A stretch of DNA of 52,766 bases from Verrucomicrobiia bacterium (GTDB lineage: Bacteria; Patescibacteriota; Saccharimonadia; Saccharimonadales; JAGQNK01), in assembly GCA_035489575.1 (NCBI GenBank), contig DATHJY010000006.1, positions 1-52,766 on the forward strand. Reading direction: 5' to 3'. A program made the position numbers and the translations under genes. The notes beneath the pieces were generated by a model. The model worked only from the letters and a program-made list of their open reading frames with translations, did not search any database and had not been told where the DNA came from. Within the stretch, counting starts at the first letter, position 1; each line of letters starts with the position of its first letter. Of the stretch, positions 461-48,926 are shown in pieces.

Positions 461-463
461 TAG

Positions 464-531
464 ACACTTTTCGTCCTTTTGGACTCGTCAGTTCTGCTTT
501 TGCCACTAGTGTGGCACATCAGAAGAAGTGT
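464..531 (-). ncRNA. Type III hammerhead ribozyme (HHR-1)
   Basis: The minus strand reads ACACTT C TTCTG [23-nt loop with GCCAC/GTGGC hairpin] CAGAA CTGACGA GTCC-AAAA-GGAC GAA AAGTGT. The parts are stem III 5' strand, C17 cleavage site, closed stem I, CUGANGA core, closed stem II, GAA core and stem III 3' strand. The core is identical to the copy at 48103-48156, and stem III differs by a compensatory change. Confidence 0.8.
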
Positions 532-659
532 GCGCGTTCGTGAAGTGGGAGTTGGTTGTCGGGGGTTGGAAGATCCAACTGCGACCACTTCACGGCCTGA
601 CTGTATGCGCGGGGGGGGTAGTCAGGTCTTGACCAGAGTCGATGTCTGCGGGGTGCAGA

Positions 660-1154
660 CTAGGCGGGGATGTCCGGGGTGGTGGCCATGGTGGCGGTCT
701 GGCTGCGGGCCTCGGCGTTGGCCTGCTGTACGGTGGGGGTCCACCCGATGGCCTCGAGGGTCATGCCGATGTAGAAGCCCAGCCACAGCACGCCCATGCG
801 GGTGAGGTCGAGCACGTAGTGCAGGTGACCGTTCTTGTCGATGACGTAGTTGGCGGCCGTGCACTCCATCACGATGGTGATGGCGAGCAGGAGGAGGCCG
901 GCGATGATCGCCGTGAGGAACAGCGTGCCCCAGCCCTTGTACCAGTCGGAGGCACGGTTGAGCTGGATGCCGTCCTTGATGGACAGCTTGGCCGCGACGA
1001 CGCCGCTGAAGGTCGTCACGATGGCGATGCTGGACAGGACGAGGTCGCTGGTGAACTGCGTCGGCAGGAAGACGCCGGCGACGATGGCCGCGACGAGCAG
1101 GACCGCGTGGAGGGGGGTGAAGATGGTGCGAAAGATCTGGAGGAAGTGGGGCAT
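660..1154 (-). CDS. GC-rich hypothetical integral membrane protein, about 4 TM helices; distant paralog of 48282..48845
   Basis: ORF 660..1262 was trimmed to the ATG at 1152-1154 (MPHFLQIF...). It has four hydrophobic segments and GC-rich third codon positions. It shares HYV..D and GFY(I/V)G motifs and the same topology with the 48282..48845 product. Confidence 0.7.
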   Translation of the reverse strand: MPHFLQIFRTIFTPLHAVLLVAAIVAGVFLPTQFTSDLVLSSIAIVTTFSGVVAAKLSIKDGIQLNRASDWYKGWGTLFLTAIIAGLLLLAITIVMECTAANYVIDKNGHLHYVLDLTRMGVLWLGFYIGMTLEAIGWTPTVQQANAEARSQTATMATTPDIPA

Positions 1155-1217
1155 GGATCCGCCTTTGACTCTGATTCCCTTGGAAGGGGCATGCGAGAGG
1201 ATTCTCACAATAAATAC

Positions 1218-1226
1218 ATTATAACA
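1218..1226 (-). promoter_or_regulatory. Extended -10 promoter element TGtTATAAT for the 660..1154 gene
   Basis: The minus strand reads TGTTATAAT in an AT-rich spacer about 60 nt upstream of the ATG. An identical 9-mer sits at the equivalent position upstream of the paralog (48918-48926). Confidence 0.45.
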
Positions 1227-1281
1227 CAAAGACTGATAAAAAGCAATACTTATGACAGTCAAGAAACAGAGGTGGGATGTA

Positions 1282-3340: not shown

Positions 3341-3424
3341 AAGGCTTCCTAATCTGTTGTGACAGAGTTCACGCTTATGCTAAAGTAGTGATAAGTATAA
3401 AAAACATCAGCGAAAGGTCAGGCT

Positions 3425-3949
3425 ATGACGGCCAAGGGCACCAAAAAAGTACCTGCAAAGTCATCGAATAAGGGTAAACAAGTGAAGAAGGCAAGCAAGT
3501 TACCGGGGTTTTTCAGTCTAAGTAATAAAAAATTCATACTCTTGACGGTTTTTATCGTTGGCTTTGTGGTTGCGGGGTCGTACTGGCTTTATCAGAGTAG
3601 TTCTGCCAGAGTCGCCAAAGACGACAGTACGGTACAGGGGTGCGAGGCTCTAGGTGTTGTGCTCAAGCAGGGCTCTAAAGGTTCATGCGTGAAAGCTGTA
3701 CAAAAAGTTCTAAATAGTGCTAAAACCAAATATGGCAGTACGGCGCATTGGGGCTATTTAACCGAGGATGGAGTCTATGGCCCTGCTACTGCTTTGACGG
3801 TGGCTGCATACCAGAAGCGTGTCAATAGTTCTCCCTTTTTTCCAGATAGACGGCCCATTGATGTAGATGGGTCGGTGGGACCACAGACATGGTTCTGGTT
3901 CCGGCAGATTACTTGTGTCGATGTCAATACGCCTGCCTGCGGGGATTAA
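3425..3949 (+). CDS. Membrane-anchored peptidoglycan-binding-domain protein
   Basis: It has a basic N-terminus, one TM segment and a PG_binding_1-like repeat (VKAVQKVLN...DGVYGPATALTVAAYQ...VDGSVGPQTW). It is a tandem paralog of 3996..4520. Confidence 0.7.
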   Translation: MTAKGTKKVPAKSSNKGKQVKKASKLPGFFSLSNKKFILLTVFIVGFVVAGSYWLYQSSSARVAKDDSTVQGCEALGVVLKQGSKGSCVKAVQKVLNSAKTKYGSTAHWGYLTEDGVYGPATALTVAAYQKRVNSSPFFPDRRPIDVDGSVGPQTWFWFRQITCVDVNTPACGD

Positions 3950-3995
3950 TGATGTCGCTCGTATAGCAATATGTAAATAACAAAGGGGACAGACA

Positions 3996-4520
3996 ATGGC
4001 AGCCCGTGGTACCAAAACAGCATCCGTAAGATCAACAGCGAAAGGCAAGCAAGTGAAGAAGGCAAGCAAGCTACCGGGTTTTCTCAGTTTGAAAAACCAA
4101 AAATTTGTTATGTTACTGGTTTTTGTGGTTGGCTTTGGAGCGGCTGGATCGTACTGGCTCTTCCAGTCTAGTTCTGCTGCACCCGCCAAGCCTGGCTTTG
4201 ATCTCACTAAAGCCTGGGGGTGTAAGGGTACGGATGCCACACTTCGGGCGGCGCCCGGTGGCAAGGTCGGTTCTGAGGGCTCGTGCGCCAAAGCTGCGCA
4301 GAGTATAGTGAATGGTGCGAATCGTCTGTATCCCAATAGTAACTGGTCTATAATAGGAGAAGACGGTAAGTACGGGGGGCAGACGGCCGCCGCTGTGAGT
4401 GCTTATCAGGGATACATGAGAATTTCGGCAGATGGCGTTGTTGGCCCAGTCACCTGGGAAAAAATGCTCGATACGTGTGAGTATTTGCGTCGGCGGGATA
4501 TAGCTCCTTCCGGATGCTAG
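3996..4520 (+). CDS. Membrane-anchored peptidoglycan-binding-domain protein, tandem paralog
   Basis: It has the same length and architecture as 3425..3949. The N-terminus AKGKQVKKASKLPGF is conserved, and the domain motif is DGKYGGQTAAAVSAYQ...ADGVVGPVTW. Confidence 0.7.
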   Translation: MAARGTKTASVRSTAKGKQVKKASKLPGFLSLKNQKFVMLLVFVVGFGAAGSYWLFQSSSAAPAKPGFDLTKAWGCKGTDATLRAAPGGKVGSEGSCAKAAQSIVNGANRLYPNSNWSIIGEDGKYGGQTAAAVSAYQGYMRISADGVVGPVTWEKMLDTCEYLRRRDIAPSGC

Positions 4521-5508: not shown

Positions 5509-5537
5509 TTGATTAAGATTGCTATTTATGGTATAAA
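5509..5537 (+). promoter_or_regulatory. Sigma70-type promoter (TTGATT, 17-nt spacer, TATAAA)
   Basis: TTGATT lies at 5509-5514 and TATAAA at 5532-5537 with a 17-nt spacer. It is about 100 nt upstream of the GTG at 5638. Confidence 0.5.
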
Positions 5538-5637: not shown

Positions 5638-5922
5638 GTGGAGCTTACGTGGAAGCAGACTATCGCGCTTGTATCGCTCGCCGGCATTGCCTATTACTGT
5701 CGGAGCCAGATACCGGGCATCGCCGCGTTTTGTTACGACTGGCGATGGGCGTTCGTGTTCGGTTTGGCCGGTTCGGTGATTGCACTGACTCTGGGTTTCA
5801 TTGTGTTGCTCATGGTCATGCCACCGGAAGGAGAACATACCAATACCGGACCTCCGAAAGGGTACGTCTACCGACCCCCGCCTGACGAAGACGAAGGCGA
5901 AGACATCTCCTGGATGCTCTGA
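5638..5922 (+). CDS. Small hypothetical membrane protein (94 aa) with moderately elevated GC
   Basis: The GTG start is preceded by AGGAGG. It has two to three hydrophobic segments and an acidic C-terminus. A structured 3' UTR and a hammerhead ribozyme follow on the same strand. Confidence 0.6.
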   Translation: MELTWKQTIALVSLAGIAYYCRSQIPGIAAFCYDWRWAFVFGLAGSVIALTLGFIVLLMVMPPEGEHTNTGPPKGYVYRPPPDEDEGEDISWML

Positions 5923-5947
5923 CACGAATGCGGGTATCAGAATCTGT

Positions 5948-6087
5948 TCAAGGTCTCTGTTGTTCTAAAATGCTCCTCCGGGTGCCCGTTCGCCCTGATC
6001 CACCAATCGCACCGCAGGTGTGCTTGGCGAACCAGTCCGAATTATCACTTGAAGTGGTACATTTTGCCAACAAAGACGAGACCTTGA
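5948..6087 (+). ncRNA. Stem-closed structured 3' UTR element (S/E motif, copy 1)
   Basis: A closing helix forms between tcaaggtctc (5948-5957) and gagaccttga (6078-6087). The internal 32-mer at 6027-6058 matches 34590-34621 at 25 of 32 positions by hand count. The blocks tccggGtg and cgccctg are shared. A variable hairpin (gcacc/gtgtgc here, cgtaac/gttacg in copy 2) occupies the same position. Confidence 0.5.
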
Positions 6088-6122
6088 GCAGGTTCTCTGC
6101 CCCCTTATTCTTCCTTGTCGTC

Positions 6123-6189
6123 TCTCGATTCCATAACTGATAGTTATGCTGATGAGTCCTCCCTGGTTTGTGCAGGACGAAAATCGAGA
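6123..6189 (+). ncRNA. Type III hammerhead ribozyme (HHR-2)
   Basis: The plus strand reads TCTCGATT(6123-6130) C(6131) CATAACT-GAT-AGTTATG(6132-6148) CTGATGA(6149-6155) GTCCT-[13-nt loop]-AGGAC(6156-6178) GAA(6179-6181) AATCGAGA(6182-6189). All invariant core positions are present. Stems I and II are loop-closed and stem III is open. Confidence 0.85.
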
Positions 6190-6206
6190 AGTGATAGACT
6201 GGTGTA

Positions 6207-7652
6207 ATGAGCTCTTCGACTTTTCTGTTCTATGACTTAGAGACTTCGGGTGTTAGCGCCCGGGATGCGCGCATTATGCAGTTTGCTGGCCAGCGGACAG
6301 ACCTGCAGCTCAATCCCGTGGGTGAGCCGTTTAACTATTTGGTTCGCCTGAGCGACGATGTCCTGCCCGAGCCGGACGCCATTCTGATTACGGGCATCAC
6401 GCCCCAAAAAACCTTGGCCGAGGGAATGCACGAAGCTGAATTCTTAAAGATATTCCATCACGATATTGCCGCTCCAGGCACTATCTTTGTGGGCTTTAAT
6501 ACCGTACGGTTCGACGATGAGTTTATGCGCTACACTATGTATCGCAACTTTTATGACCCTTACGAATGGCAGTGGCAAAATGGCCGGTCACGTTGGGATA
6601 TCTTGGACGTAGTACGCATGACACGTGCCCTGAGGCCGCAGGGAATACAGTGGCCGTTTGACCCCAAGGGCAAGCCAACCAACCGACTAGAGTTGCTGAC
6701 CAAGCTGAATAAGCTGGATCACAGTCATGCTCATGACGCGCTCAATGACGTCCTGGCTACCATTGCGGTTGCTAAGATGATCCGCGACAAACAGCCCAAG
6801 CTATTTGATTTCTTGCTACAGATGCGCGACAAAAAAGAGGTGGCCAAGCTGGTCCAGGGTGGGCAGCCGTTTGTGTACAGCTCTGGCAAATACCCCAGCG
6901 AGTTCGAAAAAACTACTGTGGTTGGCAAGCTGGCTGACCATCCCCAGGCCCAGTCGGCCCTTGTCTTTGACCTGCGACACGATCCAGAGCCTTTCCTAAA
7001 ACTCAATCCCAATGAATTGGCCGAGGCCATGCGCTGGAGTCGCGACGAAAATGCCATCCGACTGCCGGTCAAGACCATCAAATTCAACCGTTGTCCGGCC
7101 ATAGCGCCCCTGGGAGTGCTCGATGCCGATAGCCAACAGCGGCTCAAGTTGGATCCGGCTGTCTATATGGCCAACTTCAAAAAACTGCAGGCTGCCCAGG
7201 AGCGCCTGAGTACCGGCGTATTGCAGGCGTTGGAGTTACTCGACAAGAAGATGCAAGCTCGCTTGCTGCAGGATGAGGCCGACGTAGATACTCGTTTGTA
7301 CGACGGCTTTTTTGACACCCAGGACAAGCTAAAGATGAGCACCGTGCGGGCTGCCACTGCCGAAGAGCTGGGTGGCTTAGACCTGACCTTTAAAGACGAT
7401 CGCCTGGAGGCACTGCTGCCACTGTATAAAGCCCGGAATCACCCCAAGTCACTGACCGCCGAAGAGCGGGCACTATGGGAAACGTTTCGGGAACGCAAGC
7501 TACTGGGCGGTGGCGACCAAAGCCGGGCCGCCAAGTTCTTTAACCGGCTGAGCGAGTTGTCGCAGCGCACCGACCTGACTGGCGAGCAGAAATATCTGCT
7601 GGAAGAGCTGCAATTATACGGCCAAGGTATACTGCCCGTTACTGAGCAATAG
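6207..7652 (+). CDS. sbcB: Exodeoxyribonuclease I
   Basis: There is strong similarity to E. coli ExoI along the full length. Matching segments include FLFYDLETSG, ILITGITPQ, FNTVRFDDEF..YRNFYDPYEWQW..SRWDILDV and HDALNDVLATIAVAK. Confidence 0.9.
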   Translation: MSSSTFLFYDLETSGVSARDARIMQFAGQRTDLQLNPVGEPFNYLVRLSDDVLPEPDAILITGITPQKTLAEGMHEAEFLKIFHHDIAAPGTIFVGFNTVRFDDEFMRYTMYRNFYDPYEWQWQNGRSRWDILDVVRMTRALRPQGIQWPFDPKGKPTNRLELLTKLNKLDHSHAHDALNDVLATIAVAKMIRDKQPKLFDFLLQMRDKKEVAKLVQGGQPFVYSSGKYPSEFEKTTVVGKLADHPQAQSALVFDLRHDPEPFLKLNPNELAEAMRWSRDENAIRLPVKTIKFNRCPAIAPLGVLDADSQQRLKLDPAVYMANFKKLQAAQERLSTGVLQALELLDKKMQARLLQDEADVDTRLYDGFFDTQDKLKMSTVRAATAEELGGLDLTFKDDRLEALLPLYKARNHPKSLTAEERALWETFRERKLLGGGDQSRAAKFFNRLSELSQRTDLTGEQKYLLEELQLYGQGILPVTEQ

Positions 7653-16245: not shown

Positions 16246-16713
16246 ATGAACAAAAACACTCTTTTTCAATATTGCCCCAAATTTGTATTATTCTCTGAAG
16301 ATAAGACAAAGGTCTTGTTTGCCAAGCGCTTTGGCGAGCAAGATTATGACGGCGTTTATTCGCTTATTGGCGGCAAAACCGAAATCACTGATGAGTCACT
16401 GTTGGCCGGGCTCAAGCGCGAAAAAGAAGAAGAGATTGGCGAGTCTGCCAAGGTTAGAATCTGCTGGAAGATGAGCTGCTACCAAATACTATTCCGCAAA
16501 AAAGATGGCAACAGTATGATTATTCCTCATCACGTGGCGCTGTATGATGGTGGCGAGATTCGGCTCAATCCCGAGGAGTACGCTGACTACAAATGGATAC
16601 CGATTGATGAGTTCCCGGCATTCGAACCCAAGATTGCAAATAATGTTGACGTTCTGCAGGCCGCACAGCGTTTGCTGCCACTTTTGACCGACGACGACTT
16701 TGACGAAGTTTAA
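16246..16713 (+). CDS. NUDIX hydrolase
   Basis: The Nudix box GGKTEITDESLLAGLKREKEEEIG is present. It is a close paralog of 51235..51702. Confidence 0.8.
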   Translation: MNKNTLFQYCPKFVLFSEDKTKVLFAKRFGEQDYDGVYSLIGGKTEITDESLLAGLKREKEEEIGESAKVRICWKMSCYQILFRKKDGNSMIIPHHVALYDGGEIRLNPEEYADYKWIPIDEFPAFEPKIANNVDVLQAAQRLLPLLTDDDFDEV

Positions 16714-21433: not shown

Positions 21434-23245
21434 CTAGCGGTAGCCTTCGGCTTGTTTACTGAATAGTTCGTGGTACAAGCCTTTCTTTTTCATGAGGGCC
21501 TGGTGTGATCCTTGCTCGACAATCTTGCCGTGGTCTATCACGATGATGCGGTTGGCTCGGCGTACGGTGCTAAACCGGTGGCTGACTATCAGGGCCGTTT
21601 TGTCCTGATAGTGGTCAAAGATGTTGTTGAAGATGTCGTATTCGGCCTTAGCGTCTATGGCGCTGGTTGGCTCGTCTAGAATGATCATGTCGGCATTGCG
21701 GTAAAAGGCTCGGGCCAGGGCGACGCGCTGCCATTGTCCACCGCTGGGCTCGACACCTTTTTTGAAGCTGCTGTCCAGCACCGTGTCCCAGCCGTGGGCG
21801 TAGCCCTTGACCATCTCGTCTACGTTGCCAAAAGCCGCCGCTTGCTCAAGCTGTTTGCGGTTGGCTTTCTGGGTAGAGCGGCCAATCTCGATGTTTTCGG
21901 CAATGCTCAGCGGGTAGTGGTTGAAGTCTTGGAATAATGTGGCCAGCTGGGCGTACCAGGTCTCTATGGCTACCTCTTGCAGGTCCTGTCCGTCCACCAA
22001 AATCTGTCCGCTGGTGGGCTGGTAAAAACGGAGCAGCAGCTTTATGAGCGTGCTCTTGCCGGCACCATTTTCGCCAACCAGGGCAACATGCTCGCCCGAT
22101 TTTATTTCTATATTCAGGTTCTCAAAGATTGGTTCGGTCTGGTCTGGATAAGTAAATGACACGTCTTTGAAAACGATTGAGGGTGTAGCGCCAGCGGGCA
22201 GGGCGATGGCGTTTGGTGGATCGACAATACGAGGCTGAGCATCTACCAGGCTAAAGTAGCTGTCGGCAAACAACAAGCCCTCTTGCATACGGGTGAGGGT
22301 GCCAAAAATGCTGTTCAGGGCGCCACCAATGCGCAGCAGGGCACCAGACAAAAAGAAATAGCGCTCTAAAGAAATAGCGTGACTCAGGAATTGTTTTAGC
22401 AGTATCACGGCACCGGTAGCTGTGCCTCCCGCCTCTAGGACTTTGGTCAGCATGAGGGAACGGCTAGCTTTGCGGTACTTGCCCTCTTGTTCTCTATAAA
22501 ACCCTTGGTTCATGGTATCTATCTTGTTCAGGACAAAACTGGAAGCTTGAGAAGTCCGCAGCTCCATCTGGCCCTTTGCCTGACGAATGATGTATTCCAG
22601 ACCCCAAAAGATATGCCGAAAATCGCCCTTGCTGTCCCAGACAAACCACTGCATCTTGGCCATCCGGCTCTCGCCAATAAGGCTGGGTATCAAGAATAGG
22701 GCAATGAGTGGTACTAGCCACCAGGTGATTTGGGATACCACCGCTGTGATAGCCAGAAAGCGGATGAGGCCATAGATCAGCTCCAGGCAGGCGTCGGACA
22801 GGTTGGGTAGTTGCCAAATGTAGGCGCCGCTAATTTTGTTGAGCTGATTGCGCGTACTGGTTTCGTAAAAGCTGCCCAGATCAAATTTGCTGACAGATTT
22901 CAAAAAACTATTGATAGACCACTGTACCAGCGAGAAATACAGCATGCGCTTGCAGTAGCCCATGATCCAAAACCCAATGCCAATGACCACCACGGCCGTG
23001 ATATCCACCCACAGCCACAGCCAAATATTTTGCGTCTGGCCGGTCGCTACGAACAAGGCCAGCAGCGAGCCGAGCTTGGCGGTGGCGTAGATAGAGGCGA
23101 TGGTGCCACCAACCTCGACCAACGCACCCACGAAGTAGCCTACTATAGACGCACGGCGGATGTTCCAGCAGATTCGCAGCATGCGCAGCCCGATGCTCAA
23201 ACGTCGCTTGAACGTGAGGTCTGTGTCGTCTGTTTTATTCTTCAT
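21434..23245 (-). CDS. ABC exporter, fused permease/ATPase half-transporter (4 of 4)
   Basis: It has a six-TM-type N-domain. The NBD carries Walker A GENGAGKST, signature SGGQWQRVALARA and Walker B IILDEPTSAID. Confidence 0.9.
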   Translation of the reverse strand: MKNKTDDTDLTFKRRLSIGLRMLRICWNIRRASIVGYFVGALVEVGGTIASIYATAKLGSLLALFVATGQTQNIWLWLWVDITAVVVIGIGFWIMGYCKRMLYFSLVQWSINSFLKSVSKFDLGSFYETSTRNQLNKISGAYIWQLPNLSDACLELIYGLIRFLAITAVVSQITWWLVPLIALFLIPSLIGESRMAKMQWFVWDSKGDFRHIFWGLEYIIRQAKGQMELRTSQASSFVLNKIDTMNQGFYREQEGKYRKASRSLMLTKVLEAGGTATGAVILLKQFLSHAISLERYFFLSGALLRIGGALNSIFGTLTRMQEGLLFADSYFSLVDAQPRIVDPPNAIALPAGATPSIVFKDVSFTYPDQTEPIFENLNIEIKSGEHVALVGENGAGKSTLIKLLLRFYQPTSGQILVDGQDLQEVAIETWYAQLATLFQDFNHYPLSIAENIEIGRSTQKANRKQLEQAAAFGNVDEMVKGYAHGWDTVLDSSFKKGVEPSGGQWQRVALARAFYRNADMIILDEPTSAIDAKAEYDIFNNIFDHYQDKTALIVSHRFSTVRRANRIIVIDHGKIVEQGSHQALMKKKGLYHELFSKQAEGYR

Positions 23246-23248
23246 ATA

Positions 23249-25012
23249 TTAATCCTCTAAAAACCCGCCGGACTGGTGAGCCCAAAGTTTGGCATAGGTG
23301 CCTTTCTGTTTTAGTAGTTCTTTATGCGTGCCTTCCTCTATGATAGCCCCCTCTTCCAGGACCACAATGCGGTCCATTCGCTGAATGGTGCTGAGCCGGT
23401 GGGCAATCACGATAGCGGTGCGGCCCTTCATGAGCTCCCAGAGGGCTGCCTGAATAAGCACTTCGCTCTCAGAATCAAGGGCACTGGTGGCTTCGTCCAG
23501 GACCAAGATGGGTGCGTCTTTTAGCATAGCCCGGGCAATAGCTACCCGCTGACGCTGTCCGCCGGATAGCTTTACGCCGCGCTCACCCACCGGCGTATCG
23601 TATTGTTTGGGAAGCTGGGTTATAAACTCGTCTGCATGGGCTAGTTTGGCGGCTTTTTCTATCTGCTTGGTGGTGGCATCGGGTTTGCCGTAGGCGATGT
23701 TTTCACTGAGTGAACGGTGAAACAGGAGGGGTTCTTGGGGTACGTAAGCAATGGCTTGGCGCAAGCTGGTCTGGGTGACATCGGCAATATTCTGGCCATC
23801 GATCACGATCTGGCCATCGTCTATGTCAGAGAATCGCAGCAGCAACTTGGTCAGGGTGGTTTTGCCTCCGCCACTGGCACCAACCAGGCCCACCTTTTGG
23901 CCTGGTTGGATCACTAGGCTCATGTGCTCAAACAGGGCATCTGAATTATCTGCATGGGTAAAAGTTACATCCTCGAAGACGATTTTGCCCCGCTTGGCCG
24001 CCAGCTTCTGGGCATTCTTTTTGTCAGTCACCTCTATAGGCTGGTTCAGTATCTCAGTCATTTCCGAAGCATCTGTCAGGTTTTGTTCGATGTTGCGCGT
24101 CAAACTACTCAGGCCCCACAAGACAGACATGATCTGTGTCATATAGACCTGCACTAGTACCAGGGTGCCTACTGTCACATGGCCATGTTGCACCAGGAAT
24201 AGGGAAAGTACCAGTACGGTAGCTTGGAGTAGTATCATCATGGAGCCAAAGGTGGCATCGTTCTTGACGGCTCGCATCCAATATATATACTTTTTTTGCG
24301 CCCGGTCGACGGCCAGCTCATTAAACATCTTTGACTCTGGCTCTTCTGTGGCAAATGACTTAATAGCACTGGCATTGCCAATACTGTCTGCTAAGTAGCC
24401 GGTCAATTTTGTCTCGGCCTTGGCGACGGCTTTTGAGAATCTGATACGCTTCTTAGTCAGCCAGTAATTAAGCGCCACAAAAGCAGCAGACCAGACTACC
24501 ATAACTGCTGCTAGCGGGAGCGAGTAAAAGGCAATGACCACGGCCGACAGCACGACCAATATAAACATCTGCGACACATTGACAACCAAGGCGTCAGTCA
24601 GCGCCACATAGGCGTTAGCAAATCTGTTGGTCTGCGTAACTAATGATCCACTAAAACTGTTGGCATGGAACCGCTGACTTTGGTAAATCAAGTAATTATA
24701 GGCTCGCCGGTACAGATGTGGCTGCACTTTGGTTTCCATCCGCGATAGCTGAAGCAGACCAAAATCCAGGCATATCTGAGCTGCAACGCCCAGTCCAACA
24801 AATAGGGCAATATCAGTCGCAAAGCTACTCATATCTAACTGTCCTTGCTCGCTCCGGATGATTCTGTCAAAGGCTCGGGCTACAACCAAGGGCATCAGAA
24901 GTTTTTGCATGAACATACCACCAGTCCACAGGCCTACTGTAGAGAAGAGCAGGTTTTTATAGCGCAGGTTTTCGCGCAGGTATAGTTTTAGGGTTTGGGC
25001 TCCAACAGACAT
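23249..25012 (-). CDS. ABC exporter, fused permease/ATPase half-transporter (3 of 4)
   Basis: The NBD carries Walker A GASGGGKTT, signature LSGGQRQRVAIARA and Walker B LVLDEATSALD. The architecture is MsbA/MdlB-like. Confidence 0.9.
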   Translation of the reverse strand: MSVGAQTLKLYLRENLRYKNLLFSTVGLWTGGMFMQKLLMPLVVARAFDRIIRSEQGQLDMSSFATDIALFVGLGVAAQICLDFGLLQLSRMETKVQPHLYRRAYNYLIYQSQRFHANSFSGSLVTQTNRFANAYVALTDALVVNVSQMFILVVLSAVVIAFYSLPLAAVMVVWSAAFVALNYWLTKKRIRFSKAVAKAETKLTGYLADSIGNASAIKSFATEEPESKMFNELAVDRAQKKYIYWMRAVKNDATFGSMMILLQATVLVLSLFLVQHGHVTVGTLVLVQVYMTQIMSVLWGLSSLTRNIEQNLTDASEMTEILNQPIEVTDKKNAQKLAAKRGKIVFEDVTFTHADNSDALFEHMSLVIQPGQKVGLVGASGGGKTTLTKLLLRFSDIDDGQIVIDGQNIADVTQTSLRQAIAYVPQEPLLFHRSLSENIAYGKPDATTKQIEKAAKLAHADEFITQLPKQYDTPVGERGVKLSGGQRQRVAIARAMLKDAPILVLDEATSALDSESEVLIQAALWELMKGRTAIVIAHRLSTIQRMDRIVVLEEGAIIEEGTHKELLKQKGTYAKLWAHQSGGFLED

Positions 25013-25021
25013 GATTTCTCC

Positions 25022-26809
25022 TTATTCCTCTATAAATCCACCGGATTGATGCGCCCACAATGTAGCATAGGTGCCTTTTTTGCGCAGCAGCTGGGTATGG
25101 CTGCCTTCCTCTATGATCCGGCCGTCTTCTAGCACTATAATGCGGTCCATTTTTTGGATAGTGCTCAGGCGGTGGGCGATGACAACGGTGGTCCGGCCCT
25201 TCATGAGCTCGCGCAAGGCGGCTTGGATCAAACGCTCTGACTCACTATCTAGGGCACTGGTGGCTTCGTCAAGCACCAGTATGGGTGCGTCTTTTAAGAT
25301 GGCTCGGGCAATGGCTATACGTTGTCGCTGTCCGCCAGACAGCTTGACGCCACGTTCGCCAACCAATGTTTCGTAACCTTTTGGCAGTTTTTTGATGAAC
25401 TCGTGCGCATGGGCTTTGCGGGCTGCCTCCACTATCTCTTGTTCGGTTGCTTGGGGGTTGCCATAGGCAATGTTTTCACGAATACCGCGGTGGAATAGCA
25501 GTGGTTCTTGCGGTACGTAGGCAATGTGTTTGCGCAGATCTGCCTGGGTAATGTCGGCAATATTCTGGCCATCTAACAATATCTGGCCTTTGTCGATGTC
25601 ATTAAAGCGCAGCAGCAATTTGGTCAGGCTGGTCTTGCCCGAGCCCGAATGTCCAACTAGGCCAATTTTTTCGCGTGATTTGATGGCTAGGTTCAGGTCT
25701 ACGAACAGCGGATCGTCCGTGTTTGAGCCATCGTGAGCAAAGCCCATGTGTTGGAATGTAATCGCACCTTTGCCAATGCGAGCCGGCTGGGACTCAGCGG
25801 AATCTTTGACGCTTGGCTCTGTCTGCAGGACTTCCATCATGGACTGAGCATCACCAAACCCACGGTTATAGTTGCGTAGGGCGGTGTTGCAGAATTCCCA
25901 CAGTCTGTCGCGTAGGGTGCTGCTATAGGCAAATACCAGGAACACGGTTGCTACCGGCGCGTTGTAAACCACGACACTGGCGACGGCAATGGTGATGGCG
26001 GCAGCGTTGAGCAGCGCATTGATAAGCGAGAAGCTTATCTGGGCCCGCATAGATGCGACCATGTATCTTATATGAGTATGCCGCCATTTTTCGGTGCCTT
26101 CCATATAACGCTGACCCTCTGCTTTTTGGGCGGCAAAGCTTTTGATGGCCATGACATTGGTTATGCTGTCGGCCAAGTTGCCCGTCTGGCGATTGCTGGC
26201 ATCGGCTTCTTGCCGGGCGCGTAGCCGTACTGACTTGGTGATATAGATGGCTGCAACCACAAAAAAGACGCTAAAAGCGTTCAGGAAGAATACAAACAGC
26301 CTGGCCTTGTTCCACAGAATGACGCTCATAAATATGACAGACCACAACAGACCACCCGTGTTGTATACGGTGGTGTCAGTGATGCGAGTGTAGGCACTGG
26401 CCAGCTTATTTGCTTGCGAAACTAGCGAGCCGCCAAAAGTGTCGGCATGAAAGGTAGCGCTCAGTTTCATGAGGTGGTCAAAGACCTCTTGGTGGATGTC
26501 TCTGACAACCTTGCCCTCGAGCATCCAGTTGCAATACATGTTAATGCGCCAAATAACCACGCCGCCCAGGGAGGCAACTGCTACTACCGTAAGTATGTCT
26601 GGCCCAAAACTGCCCCATAAGTCGCCCCGCACGAAATTACCACTCGCCAGTCTGTTCAGGATGTTGGCAATCATGAGCGCTGGCAAAAATTCATTGAAAA
26701 GCAACGCCAGTGGCACCGTGAGGTACATGCCCCAAAACAAGAACGGGTAGCGTCGGCCATGACGCCAAAAGTATTTGAGAATTGCAGTGTTGGTGGTCAT
26801 TGGGTTCAT
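25022..26809 (-). CDS. ABC exporter, fused permease/ATPase half-transporter (2 of 4)
   Basis: The NBD carries Walker A GHSGSGKTS, signature LSGGQRQRIAIARA and Walker B LVLDEATSALD. Confidence 0.9.
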   Translation of the reverse strand: MNPMTTNTAILKYFWRHGRRYPFLFWGMYLTVPLALLFNEFLPALMIANILNRLASGNFVRGDLWGSFGPDILTVVAVASLGGVVIWRINMYCNWMLEGKVVRDIHQEVFDHLMKLSATFHADTFGGSLVSQANKLASAYTRITDTTVYNTGGLLWSVIFMSVILWNKARLFVFFLNAFSVFFVVAAIYITKSVRLRARQEADASNRQTGNLADSITNVMAIKSFAAQKAEGQRYMEGTEKWRHTHIRYMVASMRAQISFSLINALLNAAAITIAVASVVVYNAPVATVFLVFAYSSTLRDRLWEFCNTALRNYNRGFGDAQSMMEVLQTEPSVKDSAESQPARIGKGAITFQHMGFAHDGSNTDDPLFVDLNLAIKSREKIGLVGHSGSGKTSLTKLLLRFNDIDKGQILLDGQNIADITQADLRKHIAYVPQEPLLFHRGIRENIAYGNPQATEQEIVEAARKAHAHEFIKKLPKGYETLVGERGVKLSGGQRQRIAIARAILKDAPILVLDEATSALDSESERLIQAALRELMKGRTTVVIAHRLSTIQKMDRIIVLEDGRIIEEGSHTQLLRKKGTYATLWAHQSGGFIEE

Positions 26810-26812
26810 GAT

Positions 26813-28594
26813 TTAGTCTTCCAGAAATCCACCGGACTGGTGTTTCCATAGTGAGGCGTAAATGCCATTGTGTTGCAGCAACTCTTTATGCGAACCTTCC
26901 TCGACCACGGCGCCTTTTTCCATCACCAAGATACGATCCATCTTTTGGATAGTGCTGAGGCGGTGAGCGATCACAATGGCTGTGCGGCTTTCCATGAGTT
27001 TCCACAGGGCGTCTTGGATGAGCTTTTCGCTCTCAGAATCCAGAGCAGAGGTGGCTTCGTCCAGCACCAAGATAGGTGCATTTTTGAGCATGGCTCGGGC
27101 AATGGCGATTCGCTGGCGTTGTCCACCAGACAGCTTGACGCCGCGTTCGCCCACCAGCGTGTCATAGCCGTCAGACAGCTCCATGATGAATTCGTGGGCG
27201 TGGGCTACTTTAGCGGCAGCCTCGATCTCGGCCTGAGTAGCATTCGGTTTGCCGTAAGCAATATTCTCTGCGAGCGATCGGTGAAACAGCAACGGCTCTT
27301 GAGGCACATAGGTAATGGCCTGGCGCAGGTCAGCTTGGGTTACGGCGGTGATGTTTTGGCCGTCAATGAGAATCTGGCCGTCATGAATGTCCATGAACCG
27401 GAGCAGCAGTTTGGTAATGGTGGTCTTGCCACCACCACTGTGCCCCACCAGGCCGATCTTTTCGCCGGGCTGGATAGCAAAGCTGAGGTTCTTGAATAGC
27501 TTTTTGTTGGTTCTGTTCCCGGAGTAGCCAAAAGCTACGTCAGAAAACTCGATACCCCCGTGTTTGAATCGGGCAGGCTCTGGTTGCTCGGGGTCTGGGA
27601 CTTCCGGACCTAGACTGAGTATTTCGGTCATGTCAGCAGCATCTCCGAAGGAACGGTTCATGTTCTTCATAACAAACATGGCTTGCCACAGTCTCTCTGT
27701 CAGGCCGTAGGTATATGTAACAATCAAATACAGCGAGCCAATCTGGGCATTAAGCCGTGTGATGGCAAAGATTCCAACCCCAAAGGCCATGATGTTCAGG
27801 ATGGTAATAGTACTGTGACTAACATTTTCGTTCCTGAGTTGGGTGCGCATGAGCCTGAACTGAGCATCTACGGTGTGTGCTGTTTGCTTGCGGAAAATAT
27901 TCAGCTCTTGCTTTTCACCGGCAAAGGCTCGCACTGTTCCTACGTTAGTGATGTTATCTGCCAGCTTGGCTGTGCGTTCGCTCTCGCTGGTGGCGGCTGC
28001 GCGGTTTATGGGAGCTTGCTTGCGCATAAGAAAGAACATAATCACAAAGTACACCAGCGTTATGACGCTAAAGATACCGGCGTATAGTGGGTTAGTCAAA
28101 AATAGGATAGTCAAAGAGGCTATCAGCGCCGTCAGGCCGTTGACGATATTCCAGGTAAAGTCAGCCCAGAACTTGTCATGGGCGGCCGTGAACTTGTTGA
28201 CATTGGAAACTAACGAGCCACCAAAACGGTCGGCATGAAACTTGCTACCCATGTGCTGCAGGTGGTCAAACAGGTATTCTGCAGTTCGTCGTTCACTCAA
28301 GATGCTGTACTTCCAGGTGCAAATAGTCTGGGTCCGCCAGAAAAACAGGCCCGCCATGCTTGAGACGATGTACAGCAGAATATAGGGTTGCAGGGTTGCG
28401 AACGTCAGGGGCTGACCAGCTGCCGAAAGTTCCTGCATGCGGTTAAAGGCGGTCGCAATAATAAGGGGCGGCAAGACATCCGCTAGTAGCACAGCGAAGA
28501 CTACCCCAATAGTGCCATACCAAAACAGGAATGGATAAGGGCGGGTAAATTGCCAAAAGAGGCGCAGCGTTTTCTTAGTTGTAGACACAGCCAT
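26813..28594 (-). CDS. ABC exporter, fused permease/ATPase half-transporter (1 of 4)
   Basis: The NBD carries Walker A GHSGGGKTT, signature LSGGQRQRIAIARA and Walker B LVLDEATSALD. Confidence 0.9.
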   Translation of the reverse strand: MAVSTTKKTLRLFWQFTRPYPFLFWYGTIGVVFAVLLADVLPPLIIATAFNRMQELSAAGQPLTFATLQPYILLYIVSSMAGLFFWRTQTICTWKYSILSERRTAEYLFDHLQHMGSKFHADRFGGSLVSNVNKFTAAHDKFWADFTWNIVNGLTALIASLTILFLTNPLYAGIFSVITLVYFVIMFFLMRKQAPINRAAATSESERTAKLADNITNVGTVRAFAGEKQELNIFRKQTAHTVDAQFRLMRTQLRNENVSHSTITILNIMAFGVGIFAITRLNAQIGSLYLIVTYTYGLTERLWQAMFVMKNMNRSFGDAADMTEILSLGPEVPDPEQPEPARFKHGGIEFSDVAFGYSGNRTNKKLFKNLSFAIQPGEKIGLVGHSGGGKTTITKLLLRFMDIHDGQILIDGQNITAVTQADLRQAITYVPQEPLLFHRSLAENIAYGKPNATQAEIEAAAKVAHAHEFIMELSDGYDTLVGERGVKLSGGQRQRIAIARAMLKNAPILVLDEATSALDSESEKLIQDALWKLMESRTAIVIAHRLSTIQKMDRILVMEKGAVVEEGSHKELLQHNGIYASLWKHQSGGFLED

Positions 28595-47654: not shown

Positions 47655-48059
47655 TTAAAGGCTGGTGGTCTCTACTATCTGGCACCGAAAGCCTTCTATA
47701 TTTACGGTCGACCAGGTTTCGATGCCATCTTCACTGGCTTTGTCGTAGCCAAATTTATTGCCGCGGCGGGTAAAGTACTCGCTGTAGTCGTCGAAACCAA
47801 GGCTCTTGCTTACTTTGTATATGACCGAAGTGCCTTTGTGGCATTTCTCTAAACTGGCTCCCACAGGGGGAATCGCATTGTGTGGAATGTTCTGCTTGGC
47901 CTGGCCGTATGCCCTGAGCGCTCCTCTTGGTGTCGACGAGAATAAGGTGCCCGCCAAATACAGATAGATCAAAAGAGCCACCATGCCAATTGCCAGACCG
48001 GCTATGCCCCAAAGCAGCATAAGCCTGCGCTTGGCAAACGGGCGTTTAGCATTTTTCAT
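47655..48059 (-). CDS. Membrane-anchored hypothetical protein
   Basis: The start is set at MKNAKRPFAKRR (ATG at 48057-48059), followed by one TM segment. I recognise no family. HHR-3 lies 44 nt upstream on the same strand. Confidence 0.55.
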   Translation of the reverse strand: MKNAKRPFAKRRLMLLWGIAGLAIGMVALLIYLYLAGTLFSSTPRGALRAYGQAKQNIPHNAIPPVGASLEKCHKGTSVIYKVSKSLGFDDYSEYFTRRGNKFGYDKASEDGIETWSTVNIEGFRCQIVETTSL

Positions 48060-48102
48060 TACTATCAGCATAGCAAGGTCCGGTACGGAACCAACCAAAT
48101 TT

Positions 48103-48156
48103 AACGCTTTTCGTCCTTTTGGACTCGTCAGTTCTGACCATATCAGAAGAAGCGTT
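48103..48156 (-). ncRNA. Type III hammerhead ribozyme (HHR-3)
   Basis: The minus strand reads AACGCTT C TTCTGA-TATGG-TCAGAA CTGACGA GTCC-AAAA-GGAC GAA AAGCGTT. The element is a complete 54-nt minimal hammerhead. Confidence 0.85.
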
Positions 48157-48281
48157 TGGCATGAAGTAAGGTATGGTTTGATGATCTAAAAGATCAAAAG
48201 ATCAAAAGATGAGGTCCCTCCTCATCACCCTACTTCATGGCCTAGTCGTGGCTAGGACTTTTCCCAAGGTCTTGTCCCGGA

Positions 48282-48845
48282 TCAGTTGGTGCTTGCGTCG
48301 GTCGACTCGTCGCCAGGAACCAGGCGCAGAGGGGTAACAGGTGCCAGCGGACGCGGCTGTTGGGCCGGCGACGGTGCGGACACGCGCCCGGGGAACGAGC
48401 CATCGCGGAGCGCGAACAACGTGTTCAGGACAAAGCCGACGTAGAAGCCGACCGCTGTCAGCGCGATGCGCGTGGTGTCAGGGGTGTCGATGCCCACGTA
48501 GTGGTAGTCCTGCTGGAACGACCAGATGAACATCTCCGTTATGCCGATACCGAAGGCCAAGCCGAACAGAGAGAGCCAGATCGAGTTGCGCCAATGGGAG
48601 AGGGAATCCCCCAAGGAGTGCTTGCCCTCTGCGAGGGTGACCAAGCTCGTGAGTCCACCGGCCAGAATGGCTGCAGCCGTGGTGCAAGCCACCAGCCCAG
48701 CCGGACTCTTGATGGTTCCGAGGCCGAAGGGCCAGATGATCACCATGACCATCACGGGGGCGATCAAGACCTCTGCGGTCTTGCGCATGTTGCGCCAGCC
48801 GCTCGGTGTGATCACAACATCCAGGGCGTGCCGGATGTTTGACAT
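48282..48845 (-). CDS. GC-rich hypothetical integral membrane protein, about 4 TM helices; distant paralog of 660..1154
   Basis: ORF 48282..48992 was trimmed to the ATG at 48843-48845 (MSNIRHALDVV...). It has four hydrophobic segments and a Pro-rich disordered C-terminus. GC3 is high. Confidence 0.7.
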   Translation of the reverse strand: MSNIRHALDVVITPSGWRNMRKTAEVLIAPVMVMVIIWPFGLGTIKSPAGLVACTTAAAILAGGLTSLVTLAEGKHSLGDSLSHWRNSIWLSLFGLAFGIGITEMFIWSFQQDYHYVGIDTPDTTRIALTAVGFYVGFVLNTLFALRDGSFPGRVSAPSPAQQPRPLAPVTPLRLVPGDESTDASTN

Positions 48846-48917
48846 GTTTAGCGTCCTTTCACGGGACAACTTGGGAACTTCCTGGTTTTTGGTCGAGTGG
48901 GAAGTACACTTACCAAT

Positions 48918-48926
48918 ATTATAACA
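48918..48926 (-). promoter_or_regulatory. Extended -10 promoter element TGtTATAAT for the 48282..48845 gene
   Basis: The 9-mer is the same as at 1218-1226, at a similar distance from the start codon. Confidence 0.45.

What the first reader, a model, noticed from the sequence alone, without database searches (positions are those of the whole stretch)
48103..48926. Whole-module paralogy between the cassettes at 464-1226 and 48103-48926
The two minus-strand cassettes share every non-coding part in the same order:
- the extended -10 TGTTATAAT (1218-1226 and 48918-48926)
- 5' UTR motifs (ttccaag / ttcccaag, and caaaggcgga / gaaaggacgc before the ATG)
- a roughly 4-TM protein with weak but same-order similarity (W-rich loop, HYV..D, GFY[IV]G)
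- aggtcttg just past the stop
- a local hairpin (cctgact/agtcagg vs cctag/ctagg)
- a long hairpin closed by cRtgaagt / acttcaYg (539-594 vs 48160-48239)
- the hammerhead

The proteins have diverged much more than the RNA elements. This argues that the regulatory scaffold is conserved while the cargo evolves. The protein function is unknown. Small multi-TM proteins of this kind are often immunity or transport accessory proteins, but that is speculation.
Basis: seen in the sequence. Interest (0 to 1): 0.7.

Follow-up and report, generated by a model that had tools for sequence, protein, structure and literature searches.

The report
Two hammerhead-tailed membrane-protein gene cassettes
Two distant loci in this probably Saccharibacteria-like soil genome are old duplicates of one self-contained gene unit (strong promoter, fast-evolving 4-helix membrane protein, folded 3' tail, self-cleaving hammerhead RNA), and the hammerhead belongs to a large family, scoring below Rfam's cut-off, that sits behind many small genes in these ultrasmall bacteria.

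Summary
Their statistical weight is very uneven.

Strong evidence:
- Both cassettes end in a type III hammerhead with an identical 23-nt core. Their variable stems are more alike (83%) than either is to 84 other family members (at most 69%).
- The two proteins are real but remote homologs. hhalign gives score 39.3 and E 1e-5, against at most 21 in 121 control runs.
- Both coding regions are extreme GC3 outliers (0.98 and 0.81, against 0.46-0.74 in 20 other window ORFs measured).
- TGTTATAAT occurs only twice in the window, once at each cassette.

Weak evidence:
- Outside the hammerhead and the -10 box, DNA alignment of the UTRs is no better than shuffled controls.

New evidence:
- Each cassette has one ortholog elsewhere (L095, L003). 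There the UTRs are 83-95% identical while the proteins are only 34-36% and 62-63% identical.
- The same hammerhead core occurs in 91 stretches of species-representative genomes, nearly all labelled Patescibacteria. It lies behind diverse small genes, most of the ten scanned having no confident Pfam family, and usually follows a stable hairpin.
- A third hammerhead lies at 6123-6190.

Most likely role (inferred): self-cleavage sets a hairpin-protected mRNA 3' end and separates the unit from downstream transcription. The protein's function is unknown.

The parts
1218..1246 (-). cas1 promoter: -35-like TTGCTT (1241-1246), 17-nt spacer, extended -10 TGTTATAAT (1218-1226)
   Evidence: Read from the sequence. 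TGTTATAAT occurs only here and at cas2. The TTGCTT and TGnTATAAT layout is kept in ortholog L095.
1155..1211 (-). cas1 5' UTR (the start point is inferred). It has a hairpin near the 5' end, GUGAGAAUCCUCUCGC (1193-1208), a second small hairpin CCCUUCCAAGGG, and AAAGGCGGA before the ATG.
   Evidence: Folds. It is 85% identical to L095 from the first hairpin onward.
660..1154 (-). cas1 ORF, 164 aa, four predicted transmembrane helices, GC3 0.98
   Evidence: The only homologs in two libraries of 5.8 and 1.84 billion sequences are P0004 and, remotely, cas2/P0003.
596..626 (-). cas1 small 3' UTR hairpin CCUGACU...AGUCAGG. CAAGACCU (624-631) overlaps its 5' arm.
   Evidence: Kept in L095 with a U-A to U-G change.
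539..594 (-). cas1 long hairpin closed by CGUGAAGUGG / CCCACUUCACG
   Evidence: the fold of the whole 3' UTR has z -4.5. L095 keeps it, with a compensatory change GUCG/CGAC to GUUG/CAAC.
461..533 (-). cas1 type III hammerhead with a 17-nt extra hairpin in loop I. Predicted cleavage is 3' of C525.
   Evidence: Model R1 gives 57.1 bits, E 2.5e-18. The core is at 469-491.
48918..48926 (-). cas2 extended -10 TGTTATAAT
   Evidence: The promoter plus 5' UTR is 95% identical to L003.
48846..48911 (-). cas2 5' UTR (the start point is inferred). It contains ACUUCC...GGAAGU, UUCCCAAG and GAAAGGACG.
   Evidence: It is not significantly structured by minimum free energy (z -0.3).
48282..48845 (-). cas2 ORF, 187 aa, four predicted transmembrane helices, GC3 0.81
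   Evidence: Its ortholog P0003 is 62-63% identical.
48241..48256 (-). cas2 small 3' UTR hairpin CCUAG...CUAGG. CAAGACCU lies at 48267-48274.
48160..48239 (-). cas2 long branched hairpin closed by CAUGAAGUAGGGU / ACCUUACUUCAUG. Inside it is a terminator-like stem (48208-48226) followed by UUUUGAUC repeats.
   Evidence: L003 keeps it, with G-U changed to A-U and one repeat unit fewer.
48101..48157 (-). cas2 type III hammerhead. Predicted cleavage is 3' of C48149.
   Evidence: Model R1 gives 66.6 bits. Rfam Hammerhead_3 gives 40.2 bits, E 2.5e-5, below the gathering score of 48.5.
5638..6190 (+). A third unit built on the same plan, with an unrelated protein. It has a 94-aa hydrophobic ORF (5638-5922), a ~200-nt 3' UTR and a type III hammerhead (6123-6190, predicted cleavage 3' of C6131). 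It lies directly before the exonuclease I gene (6207-7652).
   Evidence: (42.7 bits)

Best explanation
The two loci are diverged paralogs of one self-contained, single-gene expression module in a genome that is probably Saccharibacteria-like (Patescibacteria/CPR).

**Layout of each module**
- An extended -10 promoter.
- A 5' UTR of about 60 nt.
- A GC3-rich ORF for a lineage-restricted, fast-evolving membrane protein with four helices.
- A 3' UTR with a small hairpin and a long hairpin.
- A type III hammerhead ribozyme.

**Proposed mechanism**
- The ribozyme folds as it is transcribed and cuts 3' of its C17. This is C525 in cas1 and C48149 in cas2, 14 and 11 nt after the long hairpin.
- The mRNA therefore ends in a 2',3'-cyclic phosphate just behind a stable hairpin. 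That end should resist 3' exonucleases and tailing.
- The ribozyme body, now with a 5'-OH, stays on whatever is transcribed downstream.
- The net effect is a defined 3' end, a stable message, and insulation from the neighbouring genes.

**What is shown**
- The anatomy of both modules.
- Heavy covariation in the ribozyme stems across the family.
- The paralogy of the two modules.
- UTRs conserved more than coding sequence in both ortholog pairs.
- The family-wide link of this hammerhead to the 3' ends of small genes and to an upstream hairpin.

**What is inferred**
- Cleavage in the cell.
- The effect on mRNA stability.
- The transcription start sites.
- The taxonomic placement of the window.
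For: **Hammerheads**
- The catalytic core is canonical and identical in both cassettes.
- Model R1 finds three hammerheads in the window.
- Across 85 family members, stems I and III are 95% paired. There are 389 cells with changes on both sides, against 107 in shuffles.

**Paralogy**
- hhalign of {cas1, P0004} against {cas2, P0003} gives probability 82%, E 1.1e-5 over 81 columns.
- Controls score far lower: 12.3 for the reversed profile, and at most 21.2 in 120 shuffles, against 39.3 for the real pair.
- Invariant residues include E97, D116, T118, R119, G126, F127, Y128 and G130.
- Hammerhead variable positions are 0.83 identical between cas1 and cas2, against at most 0.69 to any other member.
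- The stem I form CAGAACUGAYGAGUCC is found only in these modules and their two orthologs among 112 loci.
- GC3 is 0.98, 0.93, 0.81 and 0.87 in the four genes, against 0.46-0.74 in the 20 other window ORFs measured.
- TGTTATAAT occurs only at the two cassettes.

**Module as the conserved unit**
- UTR identity between orthologs is 83-95%. Coding DNA is 60-73% identical and the proteins 34-36% and 62-63%.
- Identity drops to 28-65% immediately outside the span from promoter to hammerhead.
- The adjacent 365-aa gene has omega 0.056. The two cassette genes have omega 0.60 and 1.8.

**Role as a 3' element**
- In 90 loci with an upstream gene call, the upstream gene is co-oriented in 71. The downstream gene is co-oriented in only 49 of 92.
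- The median gap from the stop codon to the hammerhead is 98 nt.
- The 100 nt before the hammerhead fold with mean z -3.5, against -0.85 at random sites.
- The upstream proteins are unrelated to each other: 81 clusters among 88 proteins.

**Precedent**
- Perreault et al. 2011 (PMC3088659) proposed that bacterial hammerheads flanking genes cut long transcripts into gene-length mRNAs.
Against: - There are no RNA data. No RNA run holds these loci, so cleavage and its effect are untested.
- Outside the hammerhead and the -10 box, UTR similarity between cas1 and cas2 is not above shuffled controls. Descent of the whole module, as opposed to gene plus ribozyme, rests on a few short co-linear motifs.
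- The protein family has only four members, so the profiles are thin.
- The omega values are inflated by the GC3 constraint on synonymous sites.
- A terminator-like hairpin inside the cas2 long hairpin could end many transcripts before they reach the ribozyme.
- Terminator-like sites after the hammerhead are not clearly enriched: 15 of 91, against 9 of 97 in controls.
- The gene calls used for the family statistics were crude ORF picks.
- The organism was inferred only from the labels of the genomes that share the hammerhead core.
Confidence: 0.6

Rival explanations
1. The two units were assembled independently. The hairpin-plus-hammerhead is a generic 3' element that this lineage attaches behind many unrelated genes. 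On this view the two cassettes share only family-wide traits and a consensus promoter, and they were not duplicated as a unit.
For: - The element sits behind 81 unrelated protein clusters among 88 proteins.
- An upstream hairpin is general in the family.
- UTR alignment outside the hammerhead is not above shuffled controls.
Against: - The proteins are homologous well beyond composition and topology controls.
- The two ribozymes are nearest relatives in their variable parts.
- Both genes share the extreme GC3.
- Both long hairpins are closed by the same AGGCCRUGAAGU / ACUUCAYG sequence.
Confidence: 0.12
2. The genes are paralogs, but the ribozyme similarity comes from later gene conversion between dispersed hammerhead copies rather than from inheritance with the gene.
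For: - In one assembly (SRP192927_co2_309; L007, L057, L070), four 3' UTR-plus-hammerhead copies are 80-96% identical. They lie behind proteins that share only 13-18% global identity. This shows that 3' modules can be homogenised or re-used within a genome.
- cas1 and cas2 hammerhead identity (0.83) is about as high as the ortholog values of 0.86-0.90.
Against: - The identical tract is only 33 nt.
- Stem III differs by a compensatory pair.
- The hairpin closers outside the ribozyme are also shared.
- No longer conversion tract is visible.
Confidence: 0.15
3. The modules are mobile gene cassettes that move as promoter-to-ribozyme units, and the hairpins serve as recombination sites.
For: - Conservation has sharp boundaries at the -35 region and at the end of the hammerhead.
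- The genes immediately flanking cas2 differ between the window and L003.
- A hammerhead-tailed gene lies in a lower-GC island of a Mycobacterium contig.
Against: - The cas1 position next to obg is syntenic with its ortholog.
- cas2 and L003 lie in the same larger syntenic block.
- The sequence reads and the repeat search showed no target duplications or flanking repeats. I did not search the window for a recombinase.
- The cassettes carry their own promoters, and the hairpin closers are not attC-like.
Confidence: 0.08
4. The ribozyme lowers expression instead of stabilising the message. Cleavage would remove a downstream terminator or protective 3' structure and expose the mRNA to decay. Alternatively, the ribozyme mainly serves the downstream gene by giving it a structured 5'-OH leader.
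For: - Some family members have an intrinsic terminator right after the hammerhead (L095; several more).
- Several downstream ORFs start within 0-25 nt of the ribozyme. The ORF at 47655-48098 starts 5 nt after the cas2 hammerhead.
Against: - Downstream genes are co-oriented only about half the time (49 of 92), while upstream genes are co-oriented in 71 of 90.
- A stable hairpin just before the cut site is the rule, which fits protection of the upstream product.
Confidence: 0.2

Closest known systems
Bacterial and prophage hammerhead ribozymes that flank genes (Perreault et al. 2011, PMC3088659)
   Same: - The catalytic core is canonical.
- The ribozymes lie between genes.
- Several copies occur per region.
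- The proposed role is cutting transcripts into gene-length mRNAs.
   Different: - Those are described as often lying near integrases and prophages. From my own recollection, not checked here, type II is the common bacterial form.
- Here the ribozymes are type III and lie in apparently ordinary chromosomal context (obg, exonuclease I, IMP dehydrogenase, ABC transporters).
- One ribozyme follows each gene, preceded by a stable hairpin.
- Only 7 contigs in the viral contig collection carry this core.
Rfam Hammerhead_3 (RF00008, clan CL00010)
   Same: The architecture and core are the same. The cas2 ribozyme aligns end to end with the model.
   Different: - All ten tested members of this family with a reported match score 35-48.3 bits, below the gathering score of 48.5.
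- The cas1 ribozyme was not reported at all.
- Standard annotation would therefore miss them.
Engineered ribozyme insulators such as RiboJ, and 3' stem-loop or REP stabilisers of upstream mRNA in E. coli (from my own knowledge, not checked here)
   Same: A self-cleaving RNA or a 3' hairpin is used to make the expression of one unit independent of its neighbours and to protect the 3' end.
   Different: - These modules are natural.
- They combine both devices.
- They are placed at the 3' end of the gene.
- The functional effect has not been measured.
The repeated 3' module of one low-GC assembly (L007, L057, L070)
   Same: Near-identical 3' UTR, hairpin and hammerhead lie behind different small secreted or lipoprotein-like ORFs. 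This is the same pattern of conserved scaffold and divergent cargo.
   Different: - The copies there are far more recent, at 80-96% identity.
- Two of them are in tandem.
- In the window only the ribozyme and short motifs remain alike.

Membership tests
Hammerhead ribozyme, type III | Conserved core CUGANGA ... GAAA with an NUH cleavage triplet | tested here: met
   - CUGACGAG...CGAAA is present, with UUC before stem I, in both cassettes.
- The third copy has CUGAUGAG.
Hammerhead ribozyme, type III | Three helices around the core. Stems I and II are closed by loops and stem III is open. Covariation should support the helices. | tested here: met
   - In 85 sequences, 95.4% of cells are paired.
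- 11 of the 12 variable pairs show changes on both sides.
- 389 cells have changes on both sides, against 107 in shuffles.
- Versions with the partner slid by 1-3 columns are 32-45% paired.
- Stem II was invariant because of how the sequences were collected.
Hammerhead ribozyme, type III | Reaches Rfam's curated gathering score for RF00008 | tested here: not met
   - cas2 scores 40.2 against 48.5, and cas1 is not reported.
- Relatives score 35.4-48.3.
- This is a threshold issue. The core and the helices are canonical.
Hammerhead ribozyme, type III | Self-cleavage at the predicted site | not testable with these tools
   No RNA runs are available. This needs in vitro transcription or end mapping.
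Hammerhead ribozyme, type III | A loop I to loop II tertiary contact that gives fast cleavage | not tested
   - The only hint is that a UG in loop I is at least 90% conserved.
- Insertions in cas1 and L003 come after GAUGYG.
- No 3D test was done.
One protein family containing cas1 and cas2 | Profile-to-profile similarity beyond what composition and topology give | tested here: met
   - hhalign gives probability 82%, E 1.1e-5, score 39.3.
- The reversed profile scores 12.3. The best of 120 column shuffles scores 21.2. This includes shuffles that keep the hydrophobic segments in place.
One protein family containing cas1 and cas2 | Same topology and shared invariant residues | tested here: met
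   - A hydropathy scan gives four hydrophobic segments in each protein.
- The AF2 model has four helices and a beta hairpin, but its mean pLDDT is only 59.8.
- 15 columns are invariant, including D-x-T-R and G-F-Y-x-G.
Any described protein family (Pfam, PHROGs, NCBIfam, PDB sequences) | A significant profile match | tested here: not met
   - The best Pfam hits have E 0.016-0.028 and score far below the cut-offs.
- There are no hits in PHROGs, NCBIfam or PDB.
Integron gene cassette | A promoterless ORF followed by an attC hairpin with RYYYAAC/GTTRRRY core sites | tested here: not met
   - Each unit has its own extended -10 promoter.
- The hairpins are closed by CRTGAAGT/ACTTCAYG.
- I did not search the window for an intI integrase.
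Type I toxin-antitoxin | A very small hydrophobic toxin, typically under 60 aa, with an overlapping antisense RNA | tested here: not met
   - The proteins are 164 and 187 aa.
- The promoter scan found one antisense-strand site within the cassettes (48156-48185, + strand, 9 of 12 matches, in the cas2 3' UTR), no more than the shuffles give, and none in cas1.
- Antisense transcription itself could not be tested.

The most novel reading that the evidence does not exclude
Hammerhead-tailed cassettes could be a dedicated expression platform of Patescibacteria. On this reading, dozens of small, GC3-enriched, mostly family-less genes per genome are each given a strong promoter and a 3' end made by a ribozyme and protected by a hairpin. 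This would yield unusually long-lived mRNAs in cells with very few ribosomes. The untranslated platform would be kept, and sometimes copied or homogenised, while the protein cargo turns over quickly, perhaps under pressure from hosts or phages. A bolder form of the idea draws on two observations: the actinobacteria-like codon bias (GC3 up to 0.98), and a hammerhead-tailed gene inside a Mycobacterium contig. These could point to exchange of such cassettes between the epibionts and their high-GC hosts.
Probability: 0.15. Interest if true: 0.85.

Novelty: new variant of a known kind. Interest (0 to 1): 0.6.

Why it matters
Hammerhead ribozymes have been known in bacteria since 2010-2011, but their natural role there is still largely guesswork. 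This window leads to a large and coherent set that could make the question testable.
- More than 100 type III hammerheads were found in 91 stretches from species-representative genomes, nearly all labelled Patescibacteria.
- All the ones tested fall below Rfam's threshold.
- They sit consistently in the 3' UTRs of small genes, after a stable hairpin.

The two cassettes and their orthologs add a rare pattern. The untranslated regions are much better conserved than the protein they flank. That marks the RNA scaffold as the selected part and gives clear constructs for experiments. Four text searches of the held paper library found no paper linking hammerheads to Saccharibacteria or Patescibacteria. 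That library is incomplete.

Tried and rejected
- **Rfam at gathering threshold:** nothing found. At the E-value threshold only the cas2 hammerhead appeared.
- **tRNA search:** none found.
- **DNA alignment of the cassettes:**
  - Only the hammerhead scored above shuffles.
  - Two further core-pattern matches, at 16388 and 29690, lie inside ORFs and were not found by the covariance model. I treat them as chance.
- **Homolog searches:**
  - cas1 alone, cas2 alone and the 4-sequence profile gave only P0003.
  - The exhaustive HMMER search added P0004.
- **Metagenome scan for hairpin closers plus the hammerhead stem:** 17 hits, none with a hammerhead, so all chance.
- **RNA-seq:** only DNA runs hold the loci.
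- **Structure prediction from 4 sequences:** mean pLDDT 59.8, too low for a fold search, so I ran none.
- **Divergent neighbour genes (161 aa and 166 aa):** not homologous, so the duplicated unit does not extend beyond the promoter.
- **The third cassette's UTRs:** no similarity to cas1 or cas2.
- **Terminators after the hammerhead:** not clearly enriched with my crude detector.
- **Integron cassette, type I toxin and prophage readings:** considered and set aside (see the membership tests).
Full report
**1. What is there**

cas1 consists of:
- TTGCTT, a 17-nt spacer and TGTTATAAT (1218-1246);
- a 5' UTR of about 57 nt;
- an ORF at 660-1154 encoding 164 aa;
- a small hairpin (596-626);
- a long hairpin closed by CGUGAAGUGG/CCCACUUCACG (539-594);
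- a hammerhead (461-533).

cas2 consists of:
- TGTTATAAT (48918-48926);
- a 5' UTR of about 66 nt;
- an ORF at 48282-48845 encoding 187 aa;
- a small hairpin (48241-48256);
- a branched long hairpin closed by CAUGAAGUAGGGU/ACCUUACUUCAUG (48160-48239);
- a hammerhead (48101-48157).

**2. The hammerheads are real**

- The 23-nt core CTGACGAGTCCAAAAGGACGAAA is identical in both cassettes and is not expected by chance.
- Rfam's Hammerhead_3 model aligns the cas2 copy end to end, but at 40.2 bits, below its gathering score of 48.5. It does not report cas1, which carries a 17-nt extra hairpin in loop I.
- A scan of one genome per species for the exact core found 91 stretches. Nearly all are labelled Patescibacteria, mostly Saccharibacteria. 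From this I infer that the window is a soil Saccharibacteria-like chromosome. Its genes fit that view: obg, exonuclease I, IMP dehydrogenase, cohesin and dockerin proteins, and ABC transporters.
- I aligned 85 of the short copies. Stems I and III covary heavily. 95% of cells are paired, and 389 cells have changes on both sides, against 107 in shuffles. Versions with the partner slid by 1-3 columns are only 32-45% paired.
- The covariance model R1 built from that alignment finds three hammerheads in the window. They are the two cassette copies and a third at 6123-6190(+). The third follows a 94-aa hydrophobic ORF and precedes the exonuclease I gene.
- R1 also finds extra copies in the fetched loci, up to four within 2 kb.
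- All relatives tested fall below Rfam's threshold.
- Only 7 viral contigs carry the core.

**3. Is the resemblance between the two cassettes more than chance?**

The answer depends on the element.

Not above chance by formal alignment against dinucleotide shuffles:
- The 3' UTRs without the hammerhead give local z 1.8, with 65 of 1000 shuffles as good.
- The 5' UTRs give local z 2.2. The global z of 3.3 is carried by the -10 box.
- Coding DNA gives z 2.0 against mononucleotide shuffles.
- BLASTN and the repeat finder see only the 33-nt hammerhead as shared between the two cassettes.
- CAAGACCT, found after both stops, is absent from the cas2 ortholog.
- A stable hairpin before the ribozyme is general in this family. 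The mean fold z is -3.5, against -0.85 at random sites.

Four independent lines do support common descent:
- **(i) Protein homology.**
  - BLASTP gives only a 29-residue match.
  - Each protein has one relative: P0004 for cas1 (34-36% identity) and P0003 for cas2 (62-63%).
  - The two 2-sequence profiles align over 81 columns with score 39.3 and E 1.1e-5.
  - The reversed profile scores 12.3. 120 column shuffles reach at most 21.2. These include shuffles that keep the hydrophobic segments in place.
  - D-x-T-R and G-F-Y-x-G are invariant in all four proteins.
- **(ii) Ribozyme variable positions.**
  - cas1 and cas2 are 83% identical there.
  - Neither exceeds 69% with any of 84 other members.
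  - Their stem I form occurs only in these modules and their orthologs.
  - Stem III differs by one compensatory pair.
- **(iii) Codon composition.** GC3 is 0.98, 0.93, 0.81 and 0.87 in the four genes. The 20 other window ORFs measured have 0.46-0.74.
- **(iv) The -10 box.** TGTTATAAT occurs only at the two cassettes.

The shared junction AGGCCRUGAAGU, between the small and long hairpins, and its complement are suggestive. By my estimate they are only a 3-6% event on their own.

**4. Orthologs show that the RNA scaffold is the conserved part**

- P0004 sits next to obg, as cas1 does.
- P0003 lies in a contig that is partly syntenic with the window, about 82% identical in a neighbouring gene.
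- Both orthologs carry the whole module.
- cas1 versus L095:
  - the 5' UTR is 85% identical and the 3' UTR 83%;
  - coding DNA is 60% identical and the protein 34-36%.
- cas2 versus L003:
  - the promoter plus 5' UTR is 95% identical and the 3' UTR 90.5%;
  - coding DNA is 73% identical and the protein 62-63%.
- Identity falls to 28-65% right outside the -35 region and the end of the ribozyme.
- Hairpins keep pairing through compensatory or wobble changes.
- The ribozyme tolerates large insertions: 17 and 36 nt in loop I, and 15 and 55 nt in loop II.
- Nei-Gojobori omega is 0.60 for cas2 and 1.8 for cas1, against 0.056 for the neighbouring gene. The GC3 constraint lowers dS, so I read this only as fast protein change.

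**5. Family context**

- Upstream genes are co-oriented with the ribozyme in 71 of 90 loci. Downstream genes are co-oriented in 49 of 92.
- The upstream genes are small, with a median of about 160 aa, and end a median of 98 nt before the ribozyme.
- They fall into 81 clusters among 88 proteins.
- Of ten scanned, only one passes a Pfam cut-off.
- They exceed the GC3 of long ORFs in the same locus by 0.14 on average.
- The ribozyme is therefore a general 3' element of small genes. This makes it notable that the two copies in this window follow homologous proteins.
- One low-GC assembly has four near-identical 3' modules behind proteins of 13-18% identity. There the same pattern of kept scaffold and changed cargo is recent.

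**6. Mechanism**

Shown:
- the anatomy of the modules;
- covariation in the ribozyme stems;
- the position of the ribozyme relative to genes and hairpins.

Inferred:
- The type III ribozyme cuts after C17, 11-14 nt past the long hairpin.
- The mRNA is left with a 2',3'-cyclic phosphate behind a stable stem.
- The ribozyme body goes to the downstream RNA.
- This should fix the 3' end, protect the message and insulate the unit.
- The idea extends the suggestion of Perreault et al. 2011 for gene-flanking bacterial hammerheads.

Open points:
- A terminator-like stem with a U-rich tail inside the cas2 long hairpin may end some transcripts early.
- Some relatives have a terminator just after the ribozyme.

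**7. The protein**

- It has four predicted helices and a short beta hairpin between helices 3 and 4. The model is of low confidence, with mean pLDDT 59.8.
- No family matched in Pfam, PHROGs, NCBIfam or PDB sequences.
- Its function is unknown. The immunity or transport idea is untested.

**8. Verdict**

  - Paralogy of gene plus ribozyme is likely.
  - Homology of every UTR part is not shown.
  - 'Scaffold conserved while cargo evolves' is well supported by the orthologs.
- It is a new variant of a known kind of element.
- Four text searches of the held paper library found no paper linking hammerheads with Saccharibacteria or Patescibacteria. That library is incomplete.

Noticed in passing
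window 5638-6190 (+): There is a third unit of the same design. It has a likely promoter (TGGTATAAA near 5528-5536), a 94-aa hydrophobic ORF, a ~200-nt 3' UTR and a type III hammerhead at 6123-6190 with a 15-nt stem II loop. The hammerhead ends 17 nt before the exonuclease I start codon. Its protein and UTRs are unrelated to cas1 and cas2.
   Followed up: partly
window 660-1154 and 48282-48845; L095 148-603; L003 5956-6450: The cassette coding regions are extreme GC3 outliers, at 0.98, 0.81, 0.93 and 0.87. The 20 other window ORFs measured have 0.46-0.74. Across 70 other loci, the genes followed by a hammerhead also exceed the GC3 of neighbouring long ORFs, by 0.14 on average. The cause is unknown. 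It could be expression-linked codon bias, selection on mRNA stability, or foreign origin.
   Followed up: partly
window 48190-48226 (-): Inside the cas2 long hairpin lies a terminator-like stem, GAUGAGGAGGGACCUCAUC. It is followed by three tandem UUUUGAUC units, where ortholog L003 has two. Early termination and formation of the outer stem might compete.
   Followed up: no
window 1141-1151 and 48899-48905 (-); L095 about 156-163: An ACUUC stretch lies near the 5' end of each mRNA. In cas1 it is CCCACUUCC at codons 2-4, in L095 it is AACUUCA, and in cas2 and L003 it is UACUUCC near the start of the 5' UTR. It is complementary to the GAAGU of the long hairpin's 5' arm. A 5'-3' end pairing is conceivable, but this could be chance.
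   Followed up: no
L074 4497-5126 (Mycobacterium asiaticum contig NZ_LZLS01000065.1): A hammerhead of the same family, with its upstream 160-aa ORF, lies in a 53-57% GC stretch of a contig that is otherwise 61-68% GC. That contig also encodes a glycine-rich PE_PGRS-like ORF. This could reflect transfer between Saccharibacteria-like bacteria and an actinobacterium, or a mobile element.
   Followed up: partly
L007 451-541 and 1750-1840; L057; L070 (one assembly, SRP192927_co2_309, labelled Gammaproteobacteria, GC about 30%): Four copies of a near-identical 3' UTR plus hammerhead (80-96% identity) lie behind different small lipoprotein-like ORFs, two of them in tandem. Other non-coding blocks are repeated around them. 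The taxonomic label looks doubtful.
   Followed up: partly
L019 1001-1058 and L092 1051-1108: A small membrane-protein gene followed by a hammerhead lies on the opposite strand inside an rRNA operon spacer, between two tRNAs and the 23S gene. Its upstream hairpin shows compensatory changes between the two genomes.
   Followed up: no
window 21434-28594 (-): Four tandem paralogous ORFs of about 590 aa, the one scanned being an ABC-transporter ATPase fusion. Blocks repeated at about 74% identity recur every ~1.78 kb.
   Followed up: no
window 3416-4189 (+): Two adjacent 174-aa paralogs with a peptidoglycan-binding domain, sharing a 203-nt block at 71% identity.
   Followed up: no
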